A stretch of 62,459 bases of DNA, filler included, from Vermamoeba vermiformis (taxonomy: Eukaryota), in assembly GCA_045837725.1 (NCBI GenBank). It is 7 parts of 7 records of this genome, joined end to end, with 100 filler letters (N's around TTAATTAATTAA, not from the genome) between each part and the next. Parts side by side here need not be neighbours in the genome. Positions count along the whole stretch, not along the records: positions 43,727 to 59,684 come from JBEWZL010000279.1; 6 more parts are not named here. One strand, 5' to 3'. The notes beneath the pieces were generated by a model that was not told the origin of the DNA, did no database searches, and saw only the letters and a program-made list of their open reading frames with translations. Every line of letters begins with the position of its first letter. Position 1 is the stretch's first letter. This document shows positions 36,790 through 60,630 of this stretch, one piece after another. The position numbers and the translations under genes were made by a program.

Positions 36790-39700
36790 TCATTCGTCAT
36801 CATCCACTGGCCACACAGAGACGTAATGATTGTTGTTCACATAAGCGAGGCGAATGGTCGGCAGGTAGTCCATGTTAACAGGCTCGAACACGAAGCGTTC
36901 AAACGAGTGATGTGCAGTCATCACAAAGATCTCCACTCGTACCCTGGTGAAATGTCAGTGTGATAATTCAACTCAGTTATGCTGTTGACGTACTTGAATA
37001 TGACAGCACAAATGCTCGCAAATTCAGTTTCGCACCATTCTTGTGGTCGTTGATACTTCGCTGCCCATTCACGTGCTTTCTCTTCAGAGTTGAATAGTGG
37101 TCCAATTGTGTCAGGATACGTCTGTGACAAGTGCTGCCAATTGTTGCGAACGTAGTTTGCAATTGTTTGTCGCAATGAGTTGCAATCACCGTTGATGTCT
37201 GTGATCACTTGTAGATAATCAATCAACGAGAAAGGCAAACAGTCACCATTGCCTGGATTGTCTCTAATCTCCAATTGAAGTGGTTGCAGTTGTACTTTCA
37301 GCTCATCTTTGTTTGCAAACGCATTTGTTGCTATTTGTTGCTTAACCGACTTCCAAAAGTCTATGGTCAGTTTATGAGTTGGCAAATCATTGACAGAGGA
37401 GGTTCGCTTTGTTCTGATGATCAAATCAGTTACTTAAAACTAAAATTTAGCCTTGGATACTTACTTTGACTGCTCTTTAGCCTGACCAATGTTTTCAAAG
37501 AGATGTGCATGATGTTGTTTCAACAATGTGGCTCGTTCCAGCATGTTGTTGAGTTGATCAACACACTGAAATACTGTTGGACGATTTGTTGGCTCTTTGT
37601 CAGTGCACTTGGTGATGAATGAGTGCACTTGTTCAATCAGTGGTGATAATTCATTGTGTTGTTGCATCAAGTGACTCAAGTCACCGCACATCTTCATCAG
37701 AACACGTCCAAAACTTGAAAAACAATTAGTCAACATATTGGCAATCAAATATTAAGTACCTGTAGACATCAACAGCTGAGTTGTATTGAGTTTGTACCAT
37801 CATTTCTGGTGCACAATAGCCTGGTGTTCCCTGACATTGTACTTCAATTAGATTGTGCTTCAGGTTCATCACTAATGGGCATTATTCTTACCTGTCTCTC
37901 ATACAAATAAGGAAGTGTTGACATTTTTGCTATTCCGAAGTCAATTATTCTCACTTTCATTTCTTTGTCAAGCTGATCAATTCAATTTAGTTACTTGAAC
38001 ATCTCTTATCTAACATACCATTATATTATCAGGTTTGATGTCACGGTGAATGATTGGTGGATTTTGACTGTGAAGATGCTTAATGCCTTCTGCAATACTG
38101 ACTGCAATGTCAAGAAGAAGAATGAGATTAGTAGAAAGAGAGTCCTTGAATTCATGGATGAGTTGAGAGAGTGACTTGTCAAGCAGCTCAGTGATGATGT
38201 ACATGTGTGCTGTGTTGTTTGACTCGCTGCAAGAGTAGCCAATGATCTTCAATGTGCAAGGATGATCAACCATTCTATGAGAAGTAAGTCCAAGTTAACA
38301 TAACATCATCATTACCTCAGTATTTTAATCTCTTTGAAAGCAGCTTGAATATCTTTGATCTCTTTCACTGCAACTTGTTGACCATTTTGAAGTGTTCCTG
38401 TCATCACTGTGCCAAATGCACCCTTGCCTTTGATGTTGTTCTTGTTCAATTTGATGTTCGCAAACTCAATCAATGGCACTTCAAACAAGGTATTGTCAGT
38501 CACAGATGATGATAAGCAACTTACAATTGAAAAGAGCCACTTCTGGCAGCAAATCGGTGATGGTAACACTTGCATCTGATTCTGCACATCCAGCAAACTG
38601 CATGTTCCTGTCAGTGACAGTTAGCAAGAGAAAAACGTTGGAAGGAAGAACAAACCTGATGAACAGTGTCAAAAGTGGAATACTGTTTGGAGTTATCTGA
38701 TCACTTGGCATCAATGGCAGGTATTGATCAATTGTTAGCTTGTTATCTCTGAATTTCTGTTGACAGCTGTTGCAGGAACAGATGGCCAATCTTTTCACAA
38801 ACTTTGTCACAGTTTGCTCATTCTGAAAATAGCTGAACAAGCTCTCTTCAATTGCTTCAAAGACTTGGGGCAGTAGTGTTAAGGAGCTAAACATAATGCA
38901 AAATATCATGTTATAATTGGTAATTTTCATGGATTTGCATTAGCTTACCCTTTGCTTGATTGAGACAAAAGTTGCACTGAATCAAATTGACTGCCAAGTT
39001 TGTTTTTTTGAATATAAACAGCTTCAGAGTTACCAAACAACTTGATGCCATGTGTAGATATAAAAATATTACACAAGGTGATTTTAGCAAAGAATTGCAT
39101 TTGAATGGTGAGGTGCTCAAAGAAGCCAATGGGCAGCATGCACTTGAAGTGATAAACTCTTCCAACTGAATAATGAAATGTTCCCTTTTGATACAATGGT
39201 ACTGAATTATGATCCAAGCCTATTTGAGGAATGAATATCTTCCAGTCTTTCACTTCCCCCTTCCTTTCAATGTAAATCAACTTGGCTTTCTCAACAACTT
39301 CAATAAACAACTTGAGTTTTATCTCATCAGAAATGACTGATTTTGCCAAGTTGTAGTCAATCCATCCGGTAATGCTTGTTGTTTTGATGTTCTTGGATTT
39401 GATTTTGATTTCATTGAATGCTTTGCTGATCAAATCACCATTCAAGATCACTGTTGCATCTTCATCTTGCTCATTTGATCCAAGATACACAATCATTCCA
39501 AGCTCTTCTAAGGAATGAAGAACTTCAATACAATGCTGAATTGATAAGTCTGTTTGCTCTGCCAAAGTTTTAACAGTCATGCACATCTCTTTGCTATCCT
39601 TGAGAAGCTTTAACATGTCAGCACTGCCTTTGAGAGAGCTTGCTGGTGATTCCTTTGATAAAACTACTGCAAGTTAGTCACTTCAAATATAGAAAAGGAA

Positions 39701-40900
39701 TGTTACCATTGAGTAAATCAACAATTGTTGAAATGTTTGTCTTATTGTCATTGCTAATGGCAAACAATTTTGATGATGGGTTGCTTGGACTCAATGAATC
39801 AATTGGATGCATGTGTAAATTTAATTGAAGTTCACTTTGCAAAGTTGTGATTGCATGATCAATATCCATTATTTTCTCTTTCAGTTCATTTTTATCTTTA
39901 ACTAAATCCAACATGGTTGCAACAACAACTACTTTGCTTTCAGGACACAATTGATGAACAATAAACATCCATTTGGCAAGTTGATCACTGATTTGTTGAT
40001 AACTGTCAATGAGCTGAACAACAATAACAAATACTGAATTTTTGGTGAAATACAGTTTGTGACTGGATAAGAAGTGCTCTTGACCTGCAAAGTCCCAAAC
40101 ACTCAGAAACTTGCCTTTTGATATCTCAATGTTGTGAATGTCAACTCCTTCCGTTCTTGATGAGCCTTGAAGACTGTAGAACCAGACATTCTTGAGTCGT
40201 TTGACAAGAGATGTCTTGCCAACAAGGCCTTCTCCAACAATCACAATCTTCTTTTGAGGAACTTGAATTTCTTCAAAGGCTTTATCATAAAAATCTTGTA
40301 TCGCTGAAATGCCCTTCTTTGCAACTGCTAATGGTGGTGATTTCAATGGGTTATCATCAATCTTCAGCTTTTTCAGCTTTACAAGGGCTATTAATGATGA
40401 TGGCAGAGCTCTCAGTTGATTTGATCTGAGATCCAAACATTGCAAGTTTGTGAGAGCTGATATTGATGATGGAAGAGTTGTCAGTTGATTTGACTTGAGA
40501 TACAACTCTTCCAAGTTGGTGAGAGCAGATATTGATGACGGAAGAGTTGTCAGTTGATGTATACCAAGATCCAACCATTTCAAGTTTGTGAGAGCAGATA
40601 TTGATGATGGCAGAGCTCTCAGTTGATTTGATCTGAGATTCAACCATTGCAAATTTGTGAGAGCTGATATTGATGATGGAAGAGTTGTCAGTTGATTTGA
40701 TCTGAGATTCAACCATTTCAAGTTTGTGAGAATTGATATTGACGATGGAAGAGTTGTCAGTTGAAATGAAGAGAGATTCAATACAGGATCCTGGCGATGT
40801 AGGGCTGTAATATCTTTGTTAATTATTTCCACACGTACAAACTATCTAAACAGTTACCCTCAGCAATCATTCTCTCTGCTTGCTCTTCAAATTGAGACAT
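36790..40900 (-). CDS. Roco protein: LRR - Roc GTPase - COR-like region - protein kinase - OTU-like deubiquitinase domain, multi-exon
   Basis: 23-aa LRRs ending NPLKSPP..KG; P-loop GEGLVGKTSL, RTEGVDI, WDFAGQE..H; kinase GKGAFG, VAVKE, HRDIKPDN, DFG, GTPGYCAPE; last two exons PGNGDCL..LRQ..W and AYVNNNHYVSV then TGA at 36790-36792. Confidence 0.85.
40400..40780 (-). repeat. 69-bp coding tandem repeat (LRR units), about six copies
   Basis: ATATTGA(T/C)GA(T/C)GG(A/C)AGAG..CAGTTGAT recurs every 69 bp; protein unit LTTLPSSISALTNLxxLxLxxNQ. Confidence 0.92.
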
Positions 40901-55341: not shown

Positions 55342-56680
55342 ATGGCTACTCGCGAGATTGTGATATTTTATGGACCAATTCCTTTAGATCCTACAAAGAA
55401 GTACGATTCAGCTATTATGGAAGCCGCCTTCCCTCAAAACGGTCTTTTAGCCGCTTGGGAAGAGCTCAAGGCTAGTGGCTTAATAGGTATTTAAATCAGG
55501 AATTAATTATTAAAGATTACGAAAAGATTTTCTTCAGATTTAATTCAATTTCTTTTTTCAGCTTCAATTATAGCTCTGTTTGCCCATATTAATTTTATTC
55601 TGCAGTATTTATGCATATTATTAGTTTAACCAGTTATTTAAGGCAAGTTCCGCAAGTATGACTTAAATGTTAAGCCCATGCCCGATAAAAAGATGATGAA
55701 AGGCAAAATGGAAATTATGGACCACGCAGGCAAGATTTTATTGCCTAAATCCGATTTGCCTGTTCACGAAAGTAAGTCATTTCGGATGTGTCTCACAGAT
55801 CTAATATTCTATGTCACTCAGAGGTCGGAGAATATTTGACTGTCGTGTGCCGTCATTTTGGAGTCGAACCTAGTGAGCCTAATCTGAACAAAAAGGTACC
55901 ATAGCGAGTTCCAAAAAGATATTTTCTAATGCGAATCTTTTTTCAGATTAACGAGCCACTTGTTAAATTCGCACACGATATTCGTACTTCTAAAATTAAG
56001 AAAGATGCTGGCAAGCAAAAAATGGAGCCTTTGTTGGCCGAAGGTAAGCGATGCTGATCCGTCTGTCAACGGGCTTCGTGAGAGATATCTAATGACATTT
56101 CAAACTATCATAGGCGGATTAGTTAATCCTATTGACGAGCGCGATGACTTGGTGAAGATTTTGATGGACTCGAACTACGCTGAGAACTGGCACGATGTCA
56201 TCGAGTTGTGCTTGCAACACGTCACTGATTTGAGGTACAAAAGCCTTCGTTAGTCTAATAATAATATTCTATATATAATACAATGACTAAAATTTATTTA
56301 TTAGCGATACTCGTTATCTGCACTTCGCTGTGGCTAAGAAAGGATCCATCCGCTTGATCAACTCGCTGATCTCGAAAGGTAACAATTTAATTAACTAAGA
56401 GATAATATAATATTAACACGTATTCTGAATAGGATGCGATATCAATCAACCTGACTACGAAGGCTGGACTCCCTTGCATTGGGCGGCGTACGTCAAAGTG
56501 AAGCGCTTAGCCGAAGTGTTGTTGGCTGCCGGTGCGAATATTAATGCGCAAAGCAAAGACGGAAATACTCCCGCACACTTGGCGAAGAATTCTCCGCTCA
56601 AGGGCGACGATGTTTATTCGTTCTTGAAGAAGAGCGGTGCTGACACTACCATCAAGAATAATCAAGGACAATCTGCCTAA
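55342..56680 (+). CDS. ankyrin-repeat protein, multi-exon
   Basis: ATG 55342; C-terminal GWTPLHWAA..LLAAGANINAQSKDGNTPAHLA..GADTTIKNNQGQSA. Confidence 0.78.
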
Positions 56681-56961
56681 ATTTATAGCTAATTTACTAT
56701 TTCATTGTATTCTTATTACTAAATATGCGAAGTTCCACAAACGGTCTGATCGCTGAACACGAAAAATTAAACTATGCTAAACGGCTTAGGACTCAATTAG
56801 TAGCCTCCCAAGCGTGGTGTACGAGCAATGAATTTTTCTGGTTCGTCGTGGAAGAGCAGCCAGACCGAAATTGGAAACACACATATTATAGGTATCGTAT
56901 TATTTGTTTCCAAAAAACGATCTATTTTTCCATTTCGGACTGACAGCCAAACACAACAGCC

Positions 56962-59340
56962 ATGTTGCGACTTATTAAAGCAACCTCTTCGGCCTTGTGT
57001 TCTAATACTTCAAGATCGCTCAGAGCGCGAGCGGTTAGAGTATTCAATAGCCGGATTTCAAATACGGCATGTCGATCCCGAAGCTTATGCAGCGACAAGC
57101 GCGCAGAACATGTCCATGATCATAAATGCAATCATGCCAGTCATATTCACGAAACTGGCACTTCAACGCAGCATCCAGTTCTGAGCCAGGCGCTTGATCA
57201 AGATCTGAGGAAGCACCGTTACGTTCATTTTTACACTTATAAGGGTCTGAAGAATATGAACCTCGTTAGAAAAACAAAAAAGCAATTTGTAGAGGAATGG
57301 GGAAAGCTGGGAGTCCTTGGAAGGTGAGATCCGAATATAATAATTAATTATTAAATATTCAGAATTTATTTTCGTCGGTTCCCCATTCGTCTAAATATGT
57401 ACTCATTTATATGAATGTAATTTTAATACTAATTATTTTTTCAGAGTCTATGTAGCCCTTGAAGGAATTAACGCCCAGATCAGCGTTCCGATCGTGAATT
57501 TAGAAGCGTTCAAAACACTCGTGCATAATACTGAAGTGCTCAAGTAGGTCCCGAATATTATAATTACCGTTGGATCGTTCATGAACTCAGTGTTTCAGAA
57601 ATGTTCGTGTGTACGAAGGTGACGAAGTTGACAGCCACAGCGAGGGCTTTCCATTCGACGAATTAGCCGTCAGAATTAAAAAATTAATTGTAGCTGATCA
57701 TTTTCCAGAACAACCGTAAGCTTGCATATTGATCCATTACCTGTGAAAATTAATCGTGAATTTTCAGCGAGGATCTGTCACAAACAGGAACTGCACTTGA
57801 ACCCGAGCAATGGGACAAAGAGCTTGAAAATAATAAGGTATTATTACTACCATTATAAATACTGTTAAATTTATTTACTAACGTTATTTTTTTAGGACGC
57901 ACTTATCGTCGACTGCAGAAATTATTATGAAAGTGAAATTGGTGCGTAATAGTATAATTTAATAATGGAATATTATTAGTATTAATGTTAATATTTCCTT
58001 TTTAGGCTTGTTTGAAGGCGCTAAAAGACTCAAAATTGACCGCCACAAAGAGAGCATTGCGGCTATTGAAGAGCTGTTAGAAATGAATCAAATCAACGCC
58101 GAGTCGAACAAAAAATTGATGATTTATTGCACGGGGGGCATAAGATGTGAAAAAATAGGAGCGCATTTAGTGCAAAACAAAGGACTCAAAAATGTTTTGA
58201 GACTCGAAGGCGGCATCAACAATTATTTCAAACAATTGCAAGAAAAACAGACGCAGGGCCAAGAAATCAATTCAAAATTCGTCGGCAAGAACTTCGTGTT
58301 TGACAATCGCATGAGGACTGGCAACAAAGGTCTGACAGTGACACCTCACGTGGTCATTGGCAAGTGTCACACGTGTGGTGCTCCGTGTGACGAGCACTCT
58401 AATTGCATCAATCCGATTTGCAACTTGATTCTGTTGCAGTGCCCTCAGTGTCACTCGAAACTACAAGGCGCGTGTAGCCCTGGTAAGAAGCTCTTCTGGC
58501 TTAAGAAATACAATTGCTAACAATAGCTCTCTAGAGTGCGCAGAGACTGCCAAGTTGCCTGCGGAAAAACTTCATGAGATGAAAGTGAAGGCGAGCAAAG
58601 AAGGAAAAATGTTCAGCAGATCATTTGAGATTGTCCAAGAACGAAAGAACTCGCAAAAGAAATCATCCGCAGAAATTCCCAGCGAGATCGTGTTTCCAAA
58701 AATAGAACAGTACTGCGACCAACACACGACAGCAGCGTCACCAGCACTAGATTTTATCAAACAACAAACGCTCGAGCGCTATTCCTTTGCCGCGCACATG
58801 ATGGTCGGACCAGTTGTTGGGCAGTTCTTGAAGACTCTGGCACGCACCACTAATGCCACTAAAGTTCTGGAGATTGGCACGTTCACTGGCTACTCAACTG
58901 TGTGCTTGGCTGAGGGACTGAAGGATGGCGGAAAAATCATCACGTGTGACATGGACAAAGAGGCAGTCGACATTGCGCGAGAGGCGTTCAAGTTATTTCA
59001 GAGTGGTGGTAAAATCGAGACACGAGTAAACACAGCGATGAAATCTCTCGAAGAAATTTCACAGCAGAACGAAGGCCCATTCGATTTAATCTTCGTGGAT
59101 GCGGACAGAAAGAACAACAAAGCGTACTACAATTTCATTCTCGAGCATGGTTTGTTAGCCCCTAACGGCGTGATGCTCGTTGACAACATGCTGTGGCGTG
59201 GTAAAGTCGTTTCAGATGGATCCAACGAGCACGCACAGGTCGTCAAAGAATTCACAGAATTTGTTCACCAAGATCCGAGAACTGAAAACGTGTTGCTGTC
59301 AATCCGGGACGGAATGCTTATGATCACGTTAAAGAAATAA
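56962..59340 (+). CDS. TrhO/YceA-type rhodanese-domain protein fused to a class I SAM-dependent O-methyltransferase, with a putative mitochondrial presequence
   Basis: FYTY, LGRVYVALEGINAQIS, DCRNYYESEIGLFEGA, YCTGGIRCEK, LEGGINNY, FVGKNFVFDNR, Cys cluster ending GACSPEC; phase-1 intron 58483-58534 joins in frame to LEIGTFTGYS, FDLIFVDADR, VDNMLWRG, IRDG. Confidence 0.87.
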
Positions 59341-59684: not shown

Positions 59685-59784
59685 NNNNNNNNNNNNNNNN
59701 NNNNNNNNNNNNNNNNNNNNNNNNNNNNTTAATTAATTAANNNNNNNNNNNNNNNNNNNNNNNNNNNNNNNNNNNNNNNNNNNN
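59685..59784. other. artificial contig spacer
   Basis: 44 N + TTAATTAATTAA + 44 N. Confidence 0.97.
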
Positions 59785-60630
59785 ACAGTTTGTTTTCGGG
59801 TCGCATATTGTAGAACAATCCTAATGAAAGAATGTCCTTAAAAACTGATTTGGATGCGGATCTGAATCTACCTTTCCAGTGAACCCCTGATAACAAGAGC
59901 AAGATCCCCATCCATTGCATTCGCCATTGCCACCACAAGTGACGTTAGAATTGCAATAGTACCCACAGTTAAAGCCATGGTAGTTCGGCAAGCAGTTGCA
60001 GCGGTGAGTCGTTTGATTGCAAAAAGCAGTCTCGGAACACACCGAAGGGTTATACGTACAATCATCTATAATACGAACGTTAATTAATAAGCGTTAATAG
60101 TCCCGAATTAAGTGGACTCACGCGAATCTGCCCGTAGACGGATCGGCAAATCAGCTACTTCTTTTGCATAGAGATTAATTGCACTGATATTGCATTTGAA
60201 ATATCCTATATGATCGAATCTTCCAATATCAAGCGTGATGGTGAAATTGTACGAGCTTAAAGGATCTTCGCTAACTGAATCCGCTCTACTGACTGAAATT
60301 CCTAACTTGGAACCTAAAAATTACATTTTAACGACGCATTGGCATTTAATCAATAATAAATTAGTTAATTACAATGAAATTACATTGAAAAATAAAAAAA
60401 AGTTGGGTGTCCCTAGCAAAAACGGATTTTTCCTTACAATTTGTCAGCGACTCTGGTCTAAATTCGTAGAAAAACGGACTATCGTTTACTAGTTGATAGA
60501 CAATAGTATAGTTCTCTTTGTAAGGAATGACAAAAAACAAATCCACCGTTGCAGGTTGCCACTCAAAAGCCGAAGCTGCGGCAAGCGTTAGAGCTAGTAT
60601 AATAATACTATAGTATTTGACTCCTTGCAT
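59785..60630 (-). CDS. EGF-like-repeat secreted/membrane protein, paralog B, 3' end lost at spacer
   Basis: Signal MQGVKYYSIIILALTLAAASA; CNCLPNYHGFNC..CGGNGECNGWGSCSCYQGFTG; exon layout parallels the upstream paralog. Confidence 0.75.

What the first reader, a model, noticed from the sequence alone, without database searches (positions are those of the whole stretch)
56962..59340. TrhO + O-methyltransferase fusion: candidate single-polypeptide mitochondrial 5-methoxyuridine (mo5U34) synthase
Seen: Arg/Ser-rich, acid-free N-terminus; complete TrhO/YceA motif set; a 52-nt phase-1 intron (58483-58534) whose removal completes the CSPEC motif and reads straight into a full O-methyltransferase. 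Established: bacterial TrhO hydroxylates tRNA U34 to ho5U using O2, and Bacillus TrmR, an O-methyltransferase of this fold class, methylates ho5U to mo5U. Inference: the fusion links two consecutive steps and predicts xo5U-type wobble modification in organellar tRNAs of a eukaryote, which I do not know to be described. Caveat: the OMT also resembles generic catechol/caffeoyl-CoA OMTs, so the substrate may not be tRNA.
Basis: partly seen in the sequence, partly recalled or inferred. Interest (0 to 1): 0.85.

Follow-up and report, generated by a model that had tools for sequence, protein, structure and literature searches.

The report
Fused tRNA uridine hydroxylase and O-methyltransferase gene
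One spliced gene of an unidentified eukaryote joins a bacterial-type tRNA wobble-uridine hydroxylase to a methyltransferase that could finish the job, but this kind of fusion has already been noted in print and what it does is still untested.

Summary
Window 56962-59340 (+) is a seven-exon gene for a 658-aa protein. It has an acid-free Arg/Ser-rich N-terminus, a complete TrhO and a Methyltransf_3 O-methyltransferase (OMT). Contigs of a relative skip five of the six introns exactly, including 58483-58534. A 90.7% identical database protein is collinear without gaps across all six junctions. Intron 6 lies inside TrhO homology, so the fusion is real.

The fusion is not new. Sakai et al. 2019 (PMC6599085) used yceA-trmR fusions in Phytophthora and Phaeodactylum to find TrhO, and suggested xo5U in eukaryotes. 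Twelve more fused proteins and an Atlas cluster of 79 exist. The fused proteins form one group in both domain trees.

The OMT is not a TrmR orthologue. It keeps the Mg ligands but lacks TrmR's tRNA-contact arginines. It resembles catechol-type OMTs and human COMTD1 far more than TrmR. Relatives co-occur strongly with TrhO in Bacteroidota but not in Actinomycetota.

Most likely (about 0.5) it is an organellar U34 to ho5U to mo5U enzyme. Mitochondrial targeting is inferred from composition only.

The parts
56962..57323 (+). Exon 1: start codon, presequence-like N-terminus, His-rich stretch, start of the TrhO N-domain
   Evidence: Gene model. X1 contigs cover 56948-57321 and then skip to 57443. 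The first ATG follows an in-frame stop at 56941-56943.
56962..57093 (+). Residues 1-44: Arg/Ser-rich, free of acidic residues; candidate organellar targeting peptide
   Evidence: 9 R+K, 13 S+T and 1 D+E in the first 45 residues. The maximum 15-aa hydropathy is 0.59, so there is no signal-peptide-like segment. The fused relative P0008 has a similar N-terminus. No predictor was run.
57109..57150 (+). His-rich stretch (residues 50-63, six His in 14 residues) between the presequence and the TrhO core
   Evidence: Read from the translation printed. Its function is unknown.
57324..57444 (+). Intron 1 (121 nt, GT..AG)
   Evidence: Skipped in an X1 contig.
57445..57543 (+). Exon 2 (TrhO N-domain)
   Evidence: Weak TrhO equivalog hit at E 0.0066 on this exon alone.
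57544..57598 (+). Intron 2 (55 nt)
   Evidence: Skipped in one X1 contig and one X10 contig.
57599..57715 (+). Exon 3. It holds R179 (57672-57674) and K181 (57678-57680), at the positions of E. coli TrhO K112 and R114.
   Evidence: Alignment with E. coli TrhO. Sakai 2019 mutants K112A and R114A lose activity.
57716..57767 (+). Intron 3 (52 nt)
   Evidence: Not listed among the joints. Supported by the gapless collinearity of P0001.
57768..57837 (+). Exon 4
57838..57895 (+). Intron 4 (58 nt)
   Evidence: Skipped in 2 X1 contigs.
57896..57941 (+). Exon 5 (start of the rhodanese domain)
57942..58005 (+). Intron 5 (64 nt)
   Evidence: Skipped in 2 X1 contigs.
58006..58482 (+). Exon 6: rhodanese domain and most of the Cys-rich Rhodanese_C domain
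   Evidence: Pfam PF00581 and PF12368. NCBIfam TrhO NF001133 at 2.4e-24 on this exon alone.
58128..58148 (+). CTGGIRC active-site loop (residues 273-279)
   Evidence: Identical to E. coli TrhO C200-C206. C200, T201, G203 and R205 are essential in E. coli (Sakai 2019).
58483..58534 (+). Intron 6 (52 nt, phase 1). It lies inside the TrhO C-terminal homology.
   Evidence: Skipped in 2 X1 contigs with side 52. The junction ...CSP|EC AETAKLPAEKL aligns with E. coli ...CSEIC CEESALPPEEQ. Read-through stops at 58520.
58535..59340 (+). Exon 7: end of the TrhO homology, Lys-rich linker, the whole O-methyltransferase, and the stop codon
58732..59325 (+). Methyltransf_3 (PF01596) domain
   Evidence: Pfam 9.2e-49, residues 66-263 of the exon-7 translation.
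59098..59109 (+). DADR: D579 is a metal ligand. R582 stands where nearly all relatives, and TrmR (K136), have Lys.
   Evidence: At this position 116 of 120 near hits have K and 1 gave no motif match. R occurs only in the window's close relatives P0026-P0028.
59182..59187 (+). D607 and N608, metal ligands (TrmR D159 and N160)
   Evidence: Conserved in 30 of 30 aligned rows. Ligands as given by Ryu 2018.

Best explanation
This is a nuclear, intron-bearing gene of an unidentified eukaryote. It encodes one 658-aa polypeptide made of four parts: a presequence-like N-terminus, a complete TrhO (O2-dependent tRNA uridine-34 C5-hydroxylase), a Lys-rich linker, and a Mg2+/SAM-dependent class-I O-methyltransferase.

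Shown here: the gene structure, the splicing, the fusion, the intact catalytic motifs of both halves, and membership of an old, conserved eukaryotic fusion family.

Inferred: the TrhO half makes 5-hydroxyuridine at the wobble position of tRNAs that read four-codon boxes. The tethered methyltransferase then converts it to 5-methoxyuridine. This methyltransferase lacks TrmR's own tRNA-binding arginines, so it presumably relies on the TrhO half and the basic linker to hold the tRNA.

Also inferred, and weaker: this happens in an organelle, most likely the mitochondrion.
For: Gene and fusion:
- The ORF-preserving splice model.
- Five introns are skipped exactly in a relative's contigs, including the junction intron.
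- P0001 is gapless across all six junctions.
- Intron 6 interrupts TrhO homology itself.

TrhO half:
- CTGGIRC is identical to E. coli C200-C206.
- K112/R114 are replaced by R/K.
- These residues are needed in E. coli (PMC6599085).
- P0001 scores 180.8 bits on the NCBIfam TrhO equivalog, whose cut-off is 170.

OMT half:
- PF01596 at 9e-49.
- The SAM-ribose acid and the three Mg ligands are conserved in 30 of 30 rows.

Linkage under selection:
- Twelve other fused proteins were found, including Vitrella, Rhodosorus (from a transcriptome set) and unnamed ones.
- An Atlas cluster holds 79 fused eukaryotic proteins, mostly diatom.
- The 13 fused rows form one group in the OMT tree (SH-aLRT 83) and in the TrhO tree (99, starred). 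Both trees have the same internal split.

Bacterial phyletic link, in 151 sampled Bacteroidota genomes:
- 69 of 72 TrhO+ genomes have an OMT match, against 26 of 79 TrhO- genomes. The odds ratio is 47 and Fisher p is 4e-17.
- A catalase control gives an odds ratio of 2.7.
- No TrhO+ genome has a full CmoB; CmoB is present in 3 of 151.

Pathway precedent: TrhO then TrmR in B. subtilis (PMC6599085, PMC6158493).

N-terminus: acid-free for 44 residues.
Against: - The OMT lacks the residues that Ryu 2018 gives as specific to TrmR orthologues and as tRNA-backbone contacts. R86 is M, R90 is A, R178 is a gap and R181 is E. K136 is R.
- By sequence it is much closer to OMTs deposited as catechol or generic O-methyltransferases and to human COMTD1 (5e-33 to 7e-31) than to YrrM/TrmR (1e-13) or to 8k1f, 'tRNA 5-hydroxyuridine methyltransferase' (1e-17).
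- None of 80 bacterial loci with a close OMT relative has trhO within 6 kb.
- In 121 sampled Actinomycetota, 7 of the 8 genomes with a close OMT match have no TrhO match.
- In Bacteroidota, 26 of 95 OMT+ genomes lack TrhO. Only 1 of the 14 close-OMT+/TrhO- genomes has a TrhP-type C-domain.
- A 2022 review states that xo5U derivatives were not found in Chlamydomonas by mass spectrometry, and that mitochondria read quartet boxes with unmodified U34 (PMC8877259, passages).
- Against a close relative, the OMT half shows 11 nonsynonymous to 10 synonymous differences. The TrhO core shows 1 to 6. These counts cover 40 of 60 listed differences.
- No targeting predictor, no organism identity and no biochemical data were available.
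Confidence: 0.5

Rival explanations
1. The fusion is real, but the methyltransferase half does not methylate ho5U in tRNA. Either it O-methylates a small catechol-like metabolite, or the pair acts on another RNA such as organellar rRNA. On this reading the TrhO-like half supplies a different hydroxylation or a rhodanese-type function.
For: - Nearest solved relatives are generic or catechol-type OMTs and COMTD1, not TrmR.
- TrmR's tRNA-contact arginines are missing.
- Close OMT relatives occur without TrhO in 7 of 8 Actinomycetota genomes and in 26 of 95 Bacteroidota genomes.
- No xo5U has been reported for organelles in the review passages read.
- The function of human TSTD2 is still unknown (PMC10135228).
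Against: - A fusion of unrelated activities would not be expected to persist as one clade across distant eukaryotes.
- The TrhO half keeps every residue shown to be needed for ho5U34 formation.
- Strong TrhO/OMT co-occurrence in Bacteroidota, with no CmoB alternative.
Confidence: 0.3
2. The enzyme makes ho5U/mo5U but is not mitochondrial. It acts in the cytosol, in a plastid, or in both organelles.
For: - Targeting rests on composition only.
- Ser/Thr-rich, acid-free N-termini also fit primary-plastid transit peptides (general knowledge, recalled).
- Many fused relatives come from plastid-bearing lineages: Vitrella, Rhodosorus and diatoms.
- The organism is unidentified.
Against: - There is no signal-peptide-like hydrophobic segment, which secondary plastids would need.
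- Phytophthora, which has the fusion, has no plastid (general knowledge, recalled).
- The nearest fused relative with a complete N-terminus, P0008, is also Arg-rich and acid-free for 38 residues.
Confidence: 0.25
3. The region holds two separate genes or products: a TrhO that ends in the retained intron, and an OMT that starts at Met-406. The joined reading would then be an artefact.
For: - Intron retention would end the frame at 58520 after 12 extra residues.
- The database holds OMT-only calls that begin at the equivalent of Met-406: P0026-P0029.
Against: - Two contigs of a relative join 58482 to 58535 exactly.
- P0001 reads through the junction.
- The start of exon 7 still aligns with the TrhO C-terminus of E. 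coli and Bacteroidota.
- The OMT-only proteins begin at the first Met of exon 7, as expected if a gene caller that does not model introns was run on unspliced DNA (my inference). P0026 lies on a 608-kb contig.
Confidence: 0.03

Closest known systems
yceA(trhO)-trmR gene fusions of Phytophthora sojae, P. ramorum and Phaeodactylum tricornutum (Sakai, Kimura & Suzuki 2019, PMC6599085)
   Same: Same two-domain order and same inferred logic: hydroxylase joined to a PF01596 methyltransferase. The window's protein falls in one group with 12 other fused eukaryotic proteins in both domain trees.
   Different: The published fusions served only as a comparative-genomics clue. The paper calls the species 'bacterial' and does not discuss localisation or activity. 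I did not retrieve those three sequences, so their exact relation to the window's protein is untested. The window's lineage differs from most fused relatives: it has Arg at the conserved Lys of DADK and no basic insertion before the ...EFN helix.
E. coli TrhO (YceA, b1055), O2-dependent tRNA U34 hydroxylase
   Same: UPF0176_N, Rhodanese and Rhodanese_C architecture. CTGGIRC loop identical. Basic pair at K112/R114 kept as R/K. Cys-rich C-terminus collinear.
   Different: About 80 extra N-terminal residues, six introns, and a C-terminal fusion. The nearest stand-alone relatives listed are Bacteroidota TrhO at 42-49% identity over exon 6.
B. subtilis TrmR (YrrM; PDB 5ZW3/5ZW4), ho5U34 O-methyltransferase
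   Same: PF01596 fold, SAM motif and Mg ligands D133/D159/N160. It catalyses the step that would follow TrhO.
   Different: Not an orthologue. The PDB match is only 1e-13. The tRNA-contact residues R86, R90, R178 and R181 are absent. Ryu 2018 found TrmR sequence neighbours only in Firmicutes.
Cation-dependent catechol-type O-methyltransferases and human COMTD1 (PDB 3r3h, 3tr6, 3dul, 3cbg, 2avd)
   Same: Best sequence matches among solved structures, at 5e-33 to 7e-31 over the whole domain. The nearest stand-alone proteins are bacterial OMTs of about 213 aa from Nitrospirota, Myxococcota, Bacteroidota and Actinomycetota, at 39-46% identity.
   Different: Those are stand-alone proteins. I recall, from no call, that several were assayed on catechols in vitro. 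None is fused to TrhO. No paper in the library mentions both COMTD1 and TSTD2.
Human TSTD2, the eukaryotic TrhO homologue
   Same: Eukaryotic member of the same family, with the CX4R loop (review PMC10135228).
   Different: It is not fused to an OMT and its function is unknown. I did not compare its sequence with the window's here.

Membership tests
TrhO (YceA/UPF0176) tRNA U34 hydroxylase | Domain architecture UPF0176_N + Rhodanese + Rhodanese_C | tested here: met
   Exon 6 matches PF00581 and PF12368. P0001, which is 90.7% identical and gapless to residues 99-658, matches PF17773 at 9e-14, PF00581 and PF12368. P0001 scores 180.8 bits on NCBIfam NF001133, cut-off 170. No exon of the window reaches that cut-off on its own.
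TrhO (YceA/UPF0176) tRNA U34 hydroxylase | CXGGXR active-site loop with C200, T201, G203 and R205 (E. coli numbering) | tested here: met
   Window C273-T-G-G-I-R-C279 is identical to E. coli 200-206. The residues are essential per PMC6599085.
TrhO (YceA/UPF0176) tRNA U34 hydroxylase | Basic beta-sheet residues K112 and R114 | tested here: met
   R179 and K181 stand at these columns, so the charge is kept and the identities are swapped. The 12 other aligned homologues have K/R and R.
TrhO (YceA/UPF0176) tRNA U34 hydroxylase | O2-dependent formation of ho5U34 on tRNA | not testable with these tools
   This needs mass spectrometry of tRNA or an enzyme assay.
TrmR (YrrM) ho5U34 O-methyltransferase | PF01596 fold with SAM site and Mg ligands D133, D159, N160 | tested here: met
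   PF01596 at 9.2e-49. D579, D607 and N608 align with the ligands; they are conserved in 30 of 30 rows.
TrmR (YrrM) ho5U34 O-methyltransferase | TrmR-specific tRNA-backbone contacts R86, R90 and R178 (also R181 and K136) | tested here: not met
   Mapped through a Listeria TrmR orthologue. That orthologue matches 5zw3 at 3.5e-63 and sits in the order ruvX-mltG-OMT-udk. In the window R86 is M, R90 is A, R178 is a gap, R181 is E and K136 is R. Contacts as listed by Ryu 2018.
TrmR (YrrM) ho5U34 O-methyltransferase | Close sequence neighbour of B. subtilis TrmR (Ryu 2018: E about 1e-41, above about 40% identity) | tested here: not met
   5zw3 is matched at 1e-13 and lies about 44th in the list, behind catechol-type OMTs. 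NCBIfam holds no TrmR model: the true Listeria orthologue hits none either.
Eukaryotic TrhO-OMT fusion proteins | Single polypeptide with TrhO N-terminal to PF01596, grouping with other fused proteins | tested here: met
   Searches show the architecture. The fused rows form one group in both quick trees: SH-aLRT 83 for the OMT and 99 for TrhO, with a long-branch warning on the latter.
Mitochondrial matrix proteins with a cleavable presequence | N-terminal amphipathic, basic, acid-free targeting peptide recognised by a predictor or shown by localisation | tested here: inconclusive
   The composition fits: 44 acid-free residues, 9 R+K, and a maximum helical moment of 0.50. No TargetP or MitoFates was available and there are no localisation data.

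The most novel reading that the evidence does not exclude
The fusion may be a Rosetta stone for a second, non-TrmR ho5U methylase. On this reading the COMTD1/SynOMT-like clade of cation-dependent 'catechol' O-methyltransferases is the natural partner of TrhO in Bacteroidota and in organelles of many protists. mo5U34 would then exist in eukaryotic organellar tRNAs. By extension, animal TSTD2 and mitochondrial COMTD1 would be the split form of the same RNA hydroxylation-methylation pathway.
Probability: 0.2. Interest if true: 0.8.

Novelty: new member of a known kind. Interest (0 to 1): 0.4.

Why it matters
xo5U-type wobble modifications are treated as bacterial. The reviews I read state that organelles read four-codon boxes with unmodified U34. 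They also state that the eukaryotic TrhO homologue TSTD2 has no known function.

A conserved eukaryotic protein that hard-wires TrhO to a methyltransferase is the strongest genomic hint that some eukaryotes make mo5U, probably in an organelle. It also names the enzyme to test.

The hint itself has been in print since 2019. This work adds five things:
- A fully supported gene model.
- The finding that the methyltransferase is not TrmR-like.
- A single origin of the fused family in both domain trees.
- A strong TrhO/OMT co-occurrence in Bacteroidota, with no CmoB alternative.
- The counter-example of Actinomycetota.

Tried and rejected
- **Whole-genome search.** No genome is held for the window. 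I could not look for other TrhO or OMT copies, organelle tRNAs or the organism's identity. Rfam and ARAGORN found nothing in the window.
- **Raw RNA-seq runs X12 and X14.** They laid 0 reads, so they are no test.
- **Gene neighbourhood in bacteria.** None of 80 loci with a close OMT relative has a TrhO match within 6 kb (tblastn, E 1e-5).
- **Getting B. subtilis TrmR itself.** The control genomes of the genome search are only tallied. I used a Listeria orthologue found on a chromosome filed among the plasmids.
- **NCBIfam as a TrmR test.** It is uninformative, because it has no TrmR model.
- **Docking of the two halves.** The complex-prediction job was not folded. Whether the domains pack together is left open, and I did not fold the protein.
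- **Tree placement of COMTD1, TSTD2, TrmR and the Phytophthora/Phaeodactylum fusions.** I had no way to fetch the eukaryotic sequences. The trees hold only fused proteins, bacterial relatives and E. coli TrhO. For the OMT tree I used 40 of the 80 bacterial loci (every second one) and 8 other multidomain OMTs. For the TrhO tree I used 14 named hits and every fifth unnamed hit.
- **Literature.**
  - TSTD2 with 5-hydroxyuridine gave 0 papers.
  - COMTD1 with TSTD2 gave 0 papers.
  - The mo5U/plastid search was badly posed. It required 2 of 5 terms, and none of the 15 listed papers holds mo5U.
  - Of 41 papers with TrhO and eukaryot* since 2019, 30 were listed. By title or abstract start, none reports xo5U in a eukaryote.
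  - Supplementary data of Sakai 2019 and Ryu 2018 (phylogenetic distribution, similarity network) could not be seen and may bear on the OMT clade.
- **Bacterial contamination.** Rejected, because the gene has six spliceosomal-type introns that are removed in transcripts.
Full report
**1. What is there**

Only two nearly identical combinations of GT..AG introns keep a frame open from the ATG at 56962 to the stop at 59338-59340. I used the one with these exons: 56962-57323, 57445-57543, 57599-57715, 57768-57837, 57896-57941, 58006-58482 and 58535-59340. It gives 658 aa. The six introns are 52-121 nt long. Their GC is 0.17-0.40, against 0.45 for the exons. The opposite strand holds only short ORFs of at most 75 aa over the gene.

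Pfam on single exons finds Rhodanese and Rhodanese_C in exon 6 (8.6e-06 and 1.7e-20). It finds Methyltransf_3 in exon 7 (9.2e-49). NCBIfam's TrhO equivalog matches exon 6 at 2.4e-24.

An ankyrin-repeat exon ends 282 bp upstream. Scaffold gaps begin about 345 bp downstream.

**2. Is the fusion real?**

Contigs of public run X1 come from a relative: 12 were laid, 90-99% alike. The label 'RNA' for this run is the tool's guess. These contigs skip exactly five of the six introns. Intron 58483-58534 is skipped in two contigs. A soil metatranscriptome contig (X10) skips intron 2. Two raw RNA-seq runs laid no reads and so test nothing.

The database protein P0001 (560 aa) aligns to model residues 99-658 at 90.7% identity with no gap. 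It therefore crosses all six junctions.

The alignment with E. coli TrhO settles the question. The residues after the junction (AETAKLPAEKL) still align with the TrhO C-terminus of E. coli and of Bacteroidota. Intron 6 thus sits inside the TrhO homology, not between two genes.

The OMT-only database entries P0026-P0029 start at the first Met of exon 7. I take them to be gene calls on unspliced DNA.

**3. The TrhO half**

- CTGGIRC (residues 273-279) is identical to E. coli C200-C206.
- E. coli K112 and R114 are R179 and K181 here.
- Sakai et al. 2019 showed that C200, T201, G203, R205, K112 and R114 are needed for ho5U34 formation (PMC6599085, passages).
- P0001 passes the curated TrhO equivalog cut-off, at 180.8 against 170 bits.
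- The nearest stand-alone relatives of exon 6 that were listed are Bacteroidota TrhO at 42-49% identity.

**4. The methyltransferase half**

The domain keeps the SAM-ribose acid and the three Mg ligands. These are conserved in 30 of 30 aligned rows.

It is not a TrmR orthologue. I obtained a true TrmR orthologue from a Listeria chromosome that is filed among the plasmids. That gene sits in the order ruvX-mltG-OMT-udk. It matches B. subtilis YrrM (5zw3) at 3.5e-63, and the match gave me residue numbering.

Ryu et al. 2018 list the tRNA-backbone contacts of TrmR. They call R86, R90 and R178 specific to TrmR orthologues (PMC6158493, passages). In the window these positions read as follows:

| TrmR residue | Window |
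|---|---|
| R86 | M |
| R90 | A |
| R178 | gap |
| R181 | E |
| K136 | R |

Against the PDB the domain matches generic and catechol-type OMTs and human COMTD1 at 5e-33 to 7e-31. It matches YrrM at only 1e-13. Its nearest stand-alone relatives are bacterial proteins of about 213 aa, from Nitrospirota, Myxococcota, Bacteroidota and Actinomycetota, at 39-46% identity.

Two features set the window's lineage apart from other fused proteins:
- Arg stands at the conserved Lys of DADK. Among 120 near hits, 116 have K and 3 have R. All three with R are the window's close relatives.
- The basic insertion that most algal fused proteins carry before the ...EFN helix is absent.

Against the X1 relative, the OMT half shows 11 nonsynonymous to 10 synonymous differences. 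The TrhO core shows 1 to 6. These counts come from the 40 of 60 differences that the tool listed. The OMT half is constrained, but less so than the TrhO half.

**5. Does this OMT family go with TrhO?**

*For.* The fusion is old and conserved. Twelve other fused proteins were retrieved, including Vitrella, Rhodosorus and unnamed ones. An Atlas cluster holds 79 fused eukaryotic proteins, mostly diatom. The 13 fused rows form one group in the OMT tree (SH-aLRT 83) and in the TrhO tree (99, with a long-branch warning). Both trees show the same internal split: the window with P0001, P0146 and P0008 on one side, and the remaining nine fused rows (an algal clade plus Vitrella P0002 and P0017) on the other.

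In 151 sampled Bacteroidota genomes the counts are:

| | OMT match | no OMT match |
|---|---|---|
| TrhO+ (72) | 69 | 3 |
| TrhO- (79) | 26 | 53 |

The odds ratio is 47, with Fisher p 4e-17, not corrected for phylogeny. A catalase control gives an odds ratio of 2.7. A full-length CmoB occurs in 3 of the 151 genomes, and none of those is TrhO+.

*Against.*
- No trhO lies within 6 kb of any of 80 bacterial OMT loci.
- In 121 sampled Actinomycetota, TrhO was found in 2 genomes and a close OMT in 8, with only 1 genome in common.
- Thirteen of the 14 Bacteroidota genomes with a close OMT but no TrhO also lack a TrhP-type C-domain.

Earlier notes of this scan report trhO next to non-TrmR OMT genes in SAR11 and in a gammaproteobacterium. 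I did not test these.

**6. Location**

The first 44 residues hold no acidic residue and are rich in Arg and Ser. They contain no signal-peptide-like hydrophobic stretch. P0008 has a similar N-terminus. This fits a mitochondrial presequence, but it would also fit a primary-plastid transit peptide. No predictor was available and the organism is unidentified.

**7. What is known**

Sakai et al. 2019 already reported yceA fused to trmR in Phytophthora sojae, P. ramorum and Phaeodactylum tricornutum, and used this to pick yceA as a candidate. They wrote that eukaryotic trhO homologues suggest an xo5U-type modification in eukaryotes.

Later reviews still give TSTD2 no function (PMC10135228). They also state that xo5U was not found in Chlamydomonas and that mitochondria use unmodified U34 (PMC8877259).

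I found no paper that reports xo5U in a eukaryote. This claim is limited to the held library, and I could not see supplements.

**8. Verdict**

The gene is a further member of a documented eukaryotic TrhO-OMT fusion family, so it is not new in kind.

The best reading is a bifunctional U34 to ho5U to mo5U enzyme of an organelle, at about 0.5. In this reading the TrhO half and the basic linker supply the tRNA binding that the OMT half lacks.

The main rival, at about 0.3, is that the OMT half has another substrate.

Interest is moderate. The prediction is important and testable, but it has been implicit in print since 2019.

Noticed in passing
window 59107-59109 (residue R582): The Lys of the DADK motif is Arg in the window and in its close relatives only. 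This Lys corresponds to TrmR K136, a tRNA phosphate contact. Among 120 near hits, 116 have K and 3 have R (P0026-P0028), and a Lys follows immediately in the window. Whether this changes catalysis or substrate is unknown.
   Followed up: partly
window 57109-57150 (residues 50-63): A His-rich stretch, with six His in 14 residues, lies between the presequence-like N-terminus and the TrhO core. It may bind metal. It is not part of P0001, which starts at residue 99.
   Followed up: no
P0004, P0005, P0007, P0012, P0014, P0017 (fused relatives): The algal-type fused proteins carry an N-terminal extension of about 160-300 aa before the TrhO core, with conserved positions in the alignment consensus. 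They also carry a basic insertion in the OMT that resembles TrmR's R178-R181 helix. The window's protein has neither.
   Followed up: partly
window 58483-58520: If intron 6 were retained, translation would stop after 12 extra residues. That would give a TrhO-only protein truncated within the Cys-rich C-terminal domain. No contig that covers the intron was among the pieces shown.
   Followed up: no
L089 (NZ_CP030101.1): A 2.9-Mb Listeria monocytogenes chromosome is filed as 'plasmid unnamed' in the plasmid collection. Several other records of megabase size appear in the same hit list.
   Followed up: no
PMC6599085, results text and Fig. 3 legend: The paper calls Phytophthora sojae, P. ramorum and Phaeodactylum tricornutum 'three bacterial species'. 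They are eukaryotes, which may be why the eukaryotic fusion has drawn little attention.
   Followed up: no
Bacteroidota genomes G020, G036, G047: The only three sampled Bacteroidota genomes with a full-length CmoB have neither a TrhO nor an OMT match. Two mutually exclusive xo5U routes in this phylum would look like this.
   Followed up: partly
window 39678-40841 (-) and 56429-56680 (+): The window also holds an LRR-Roc (ROCO-type GTPase) ORF and an ankyrin-repeat exon. Many other long ORFs in the window have no Pfam match. The window has about 40% GC and runs of N at about 59685-59785.
   Followed up: no
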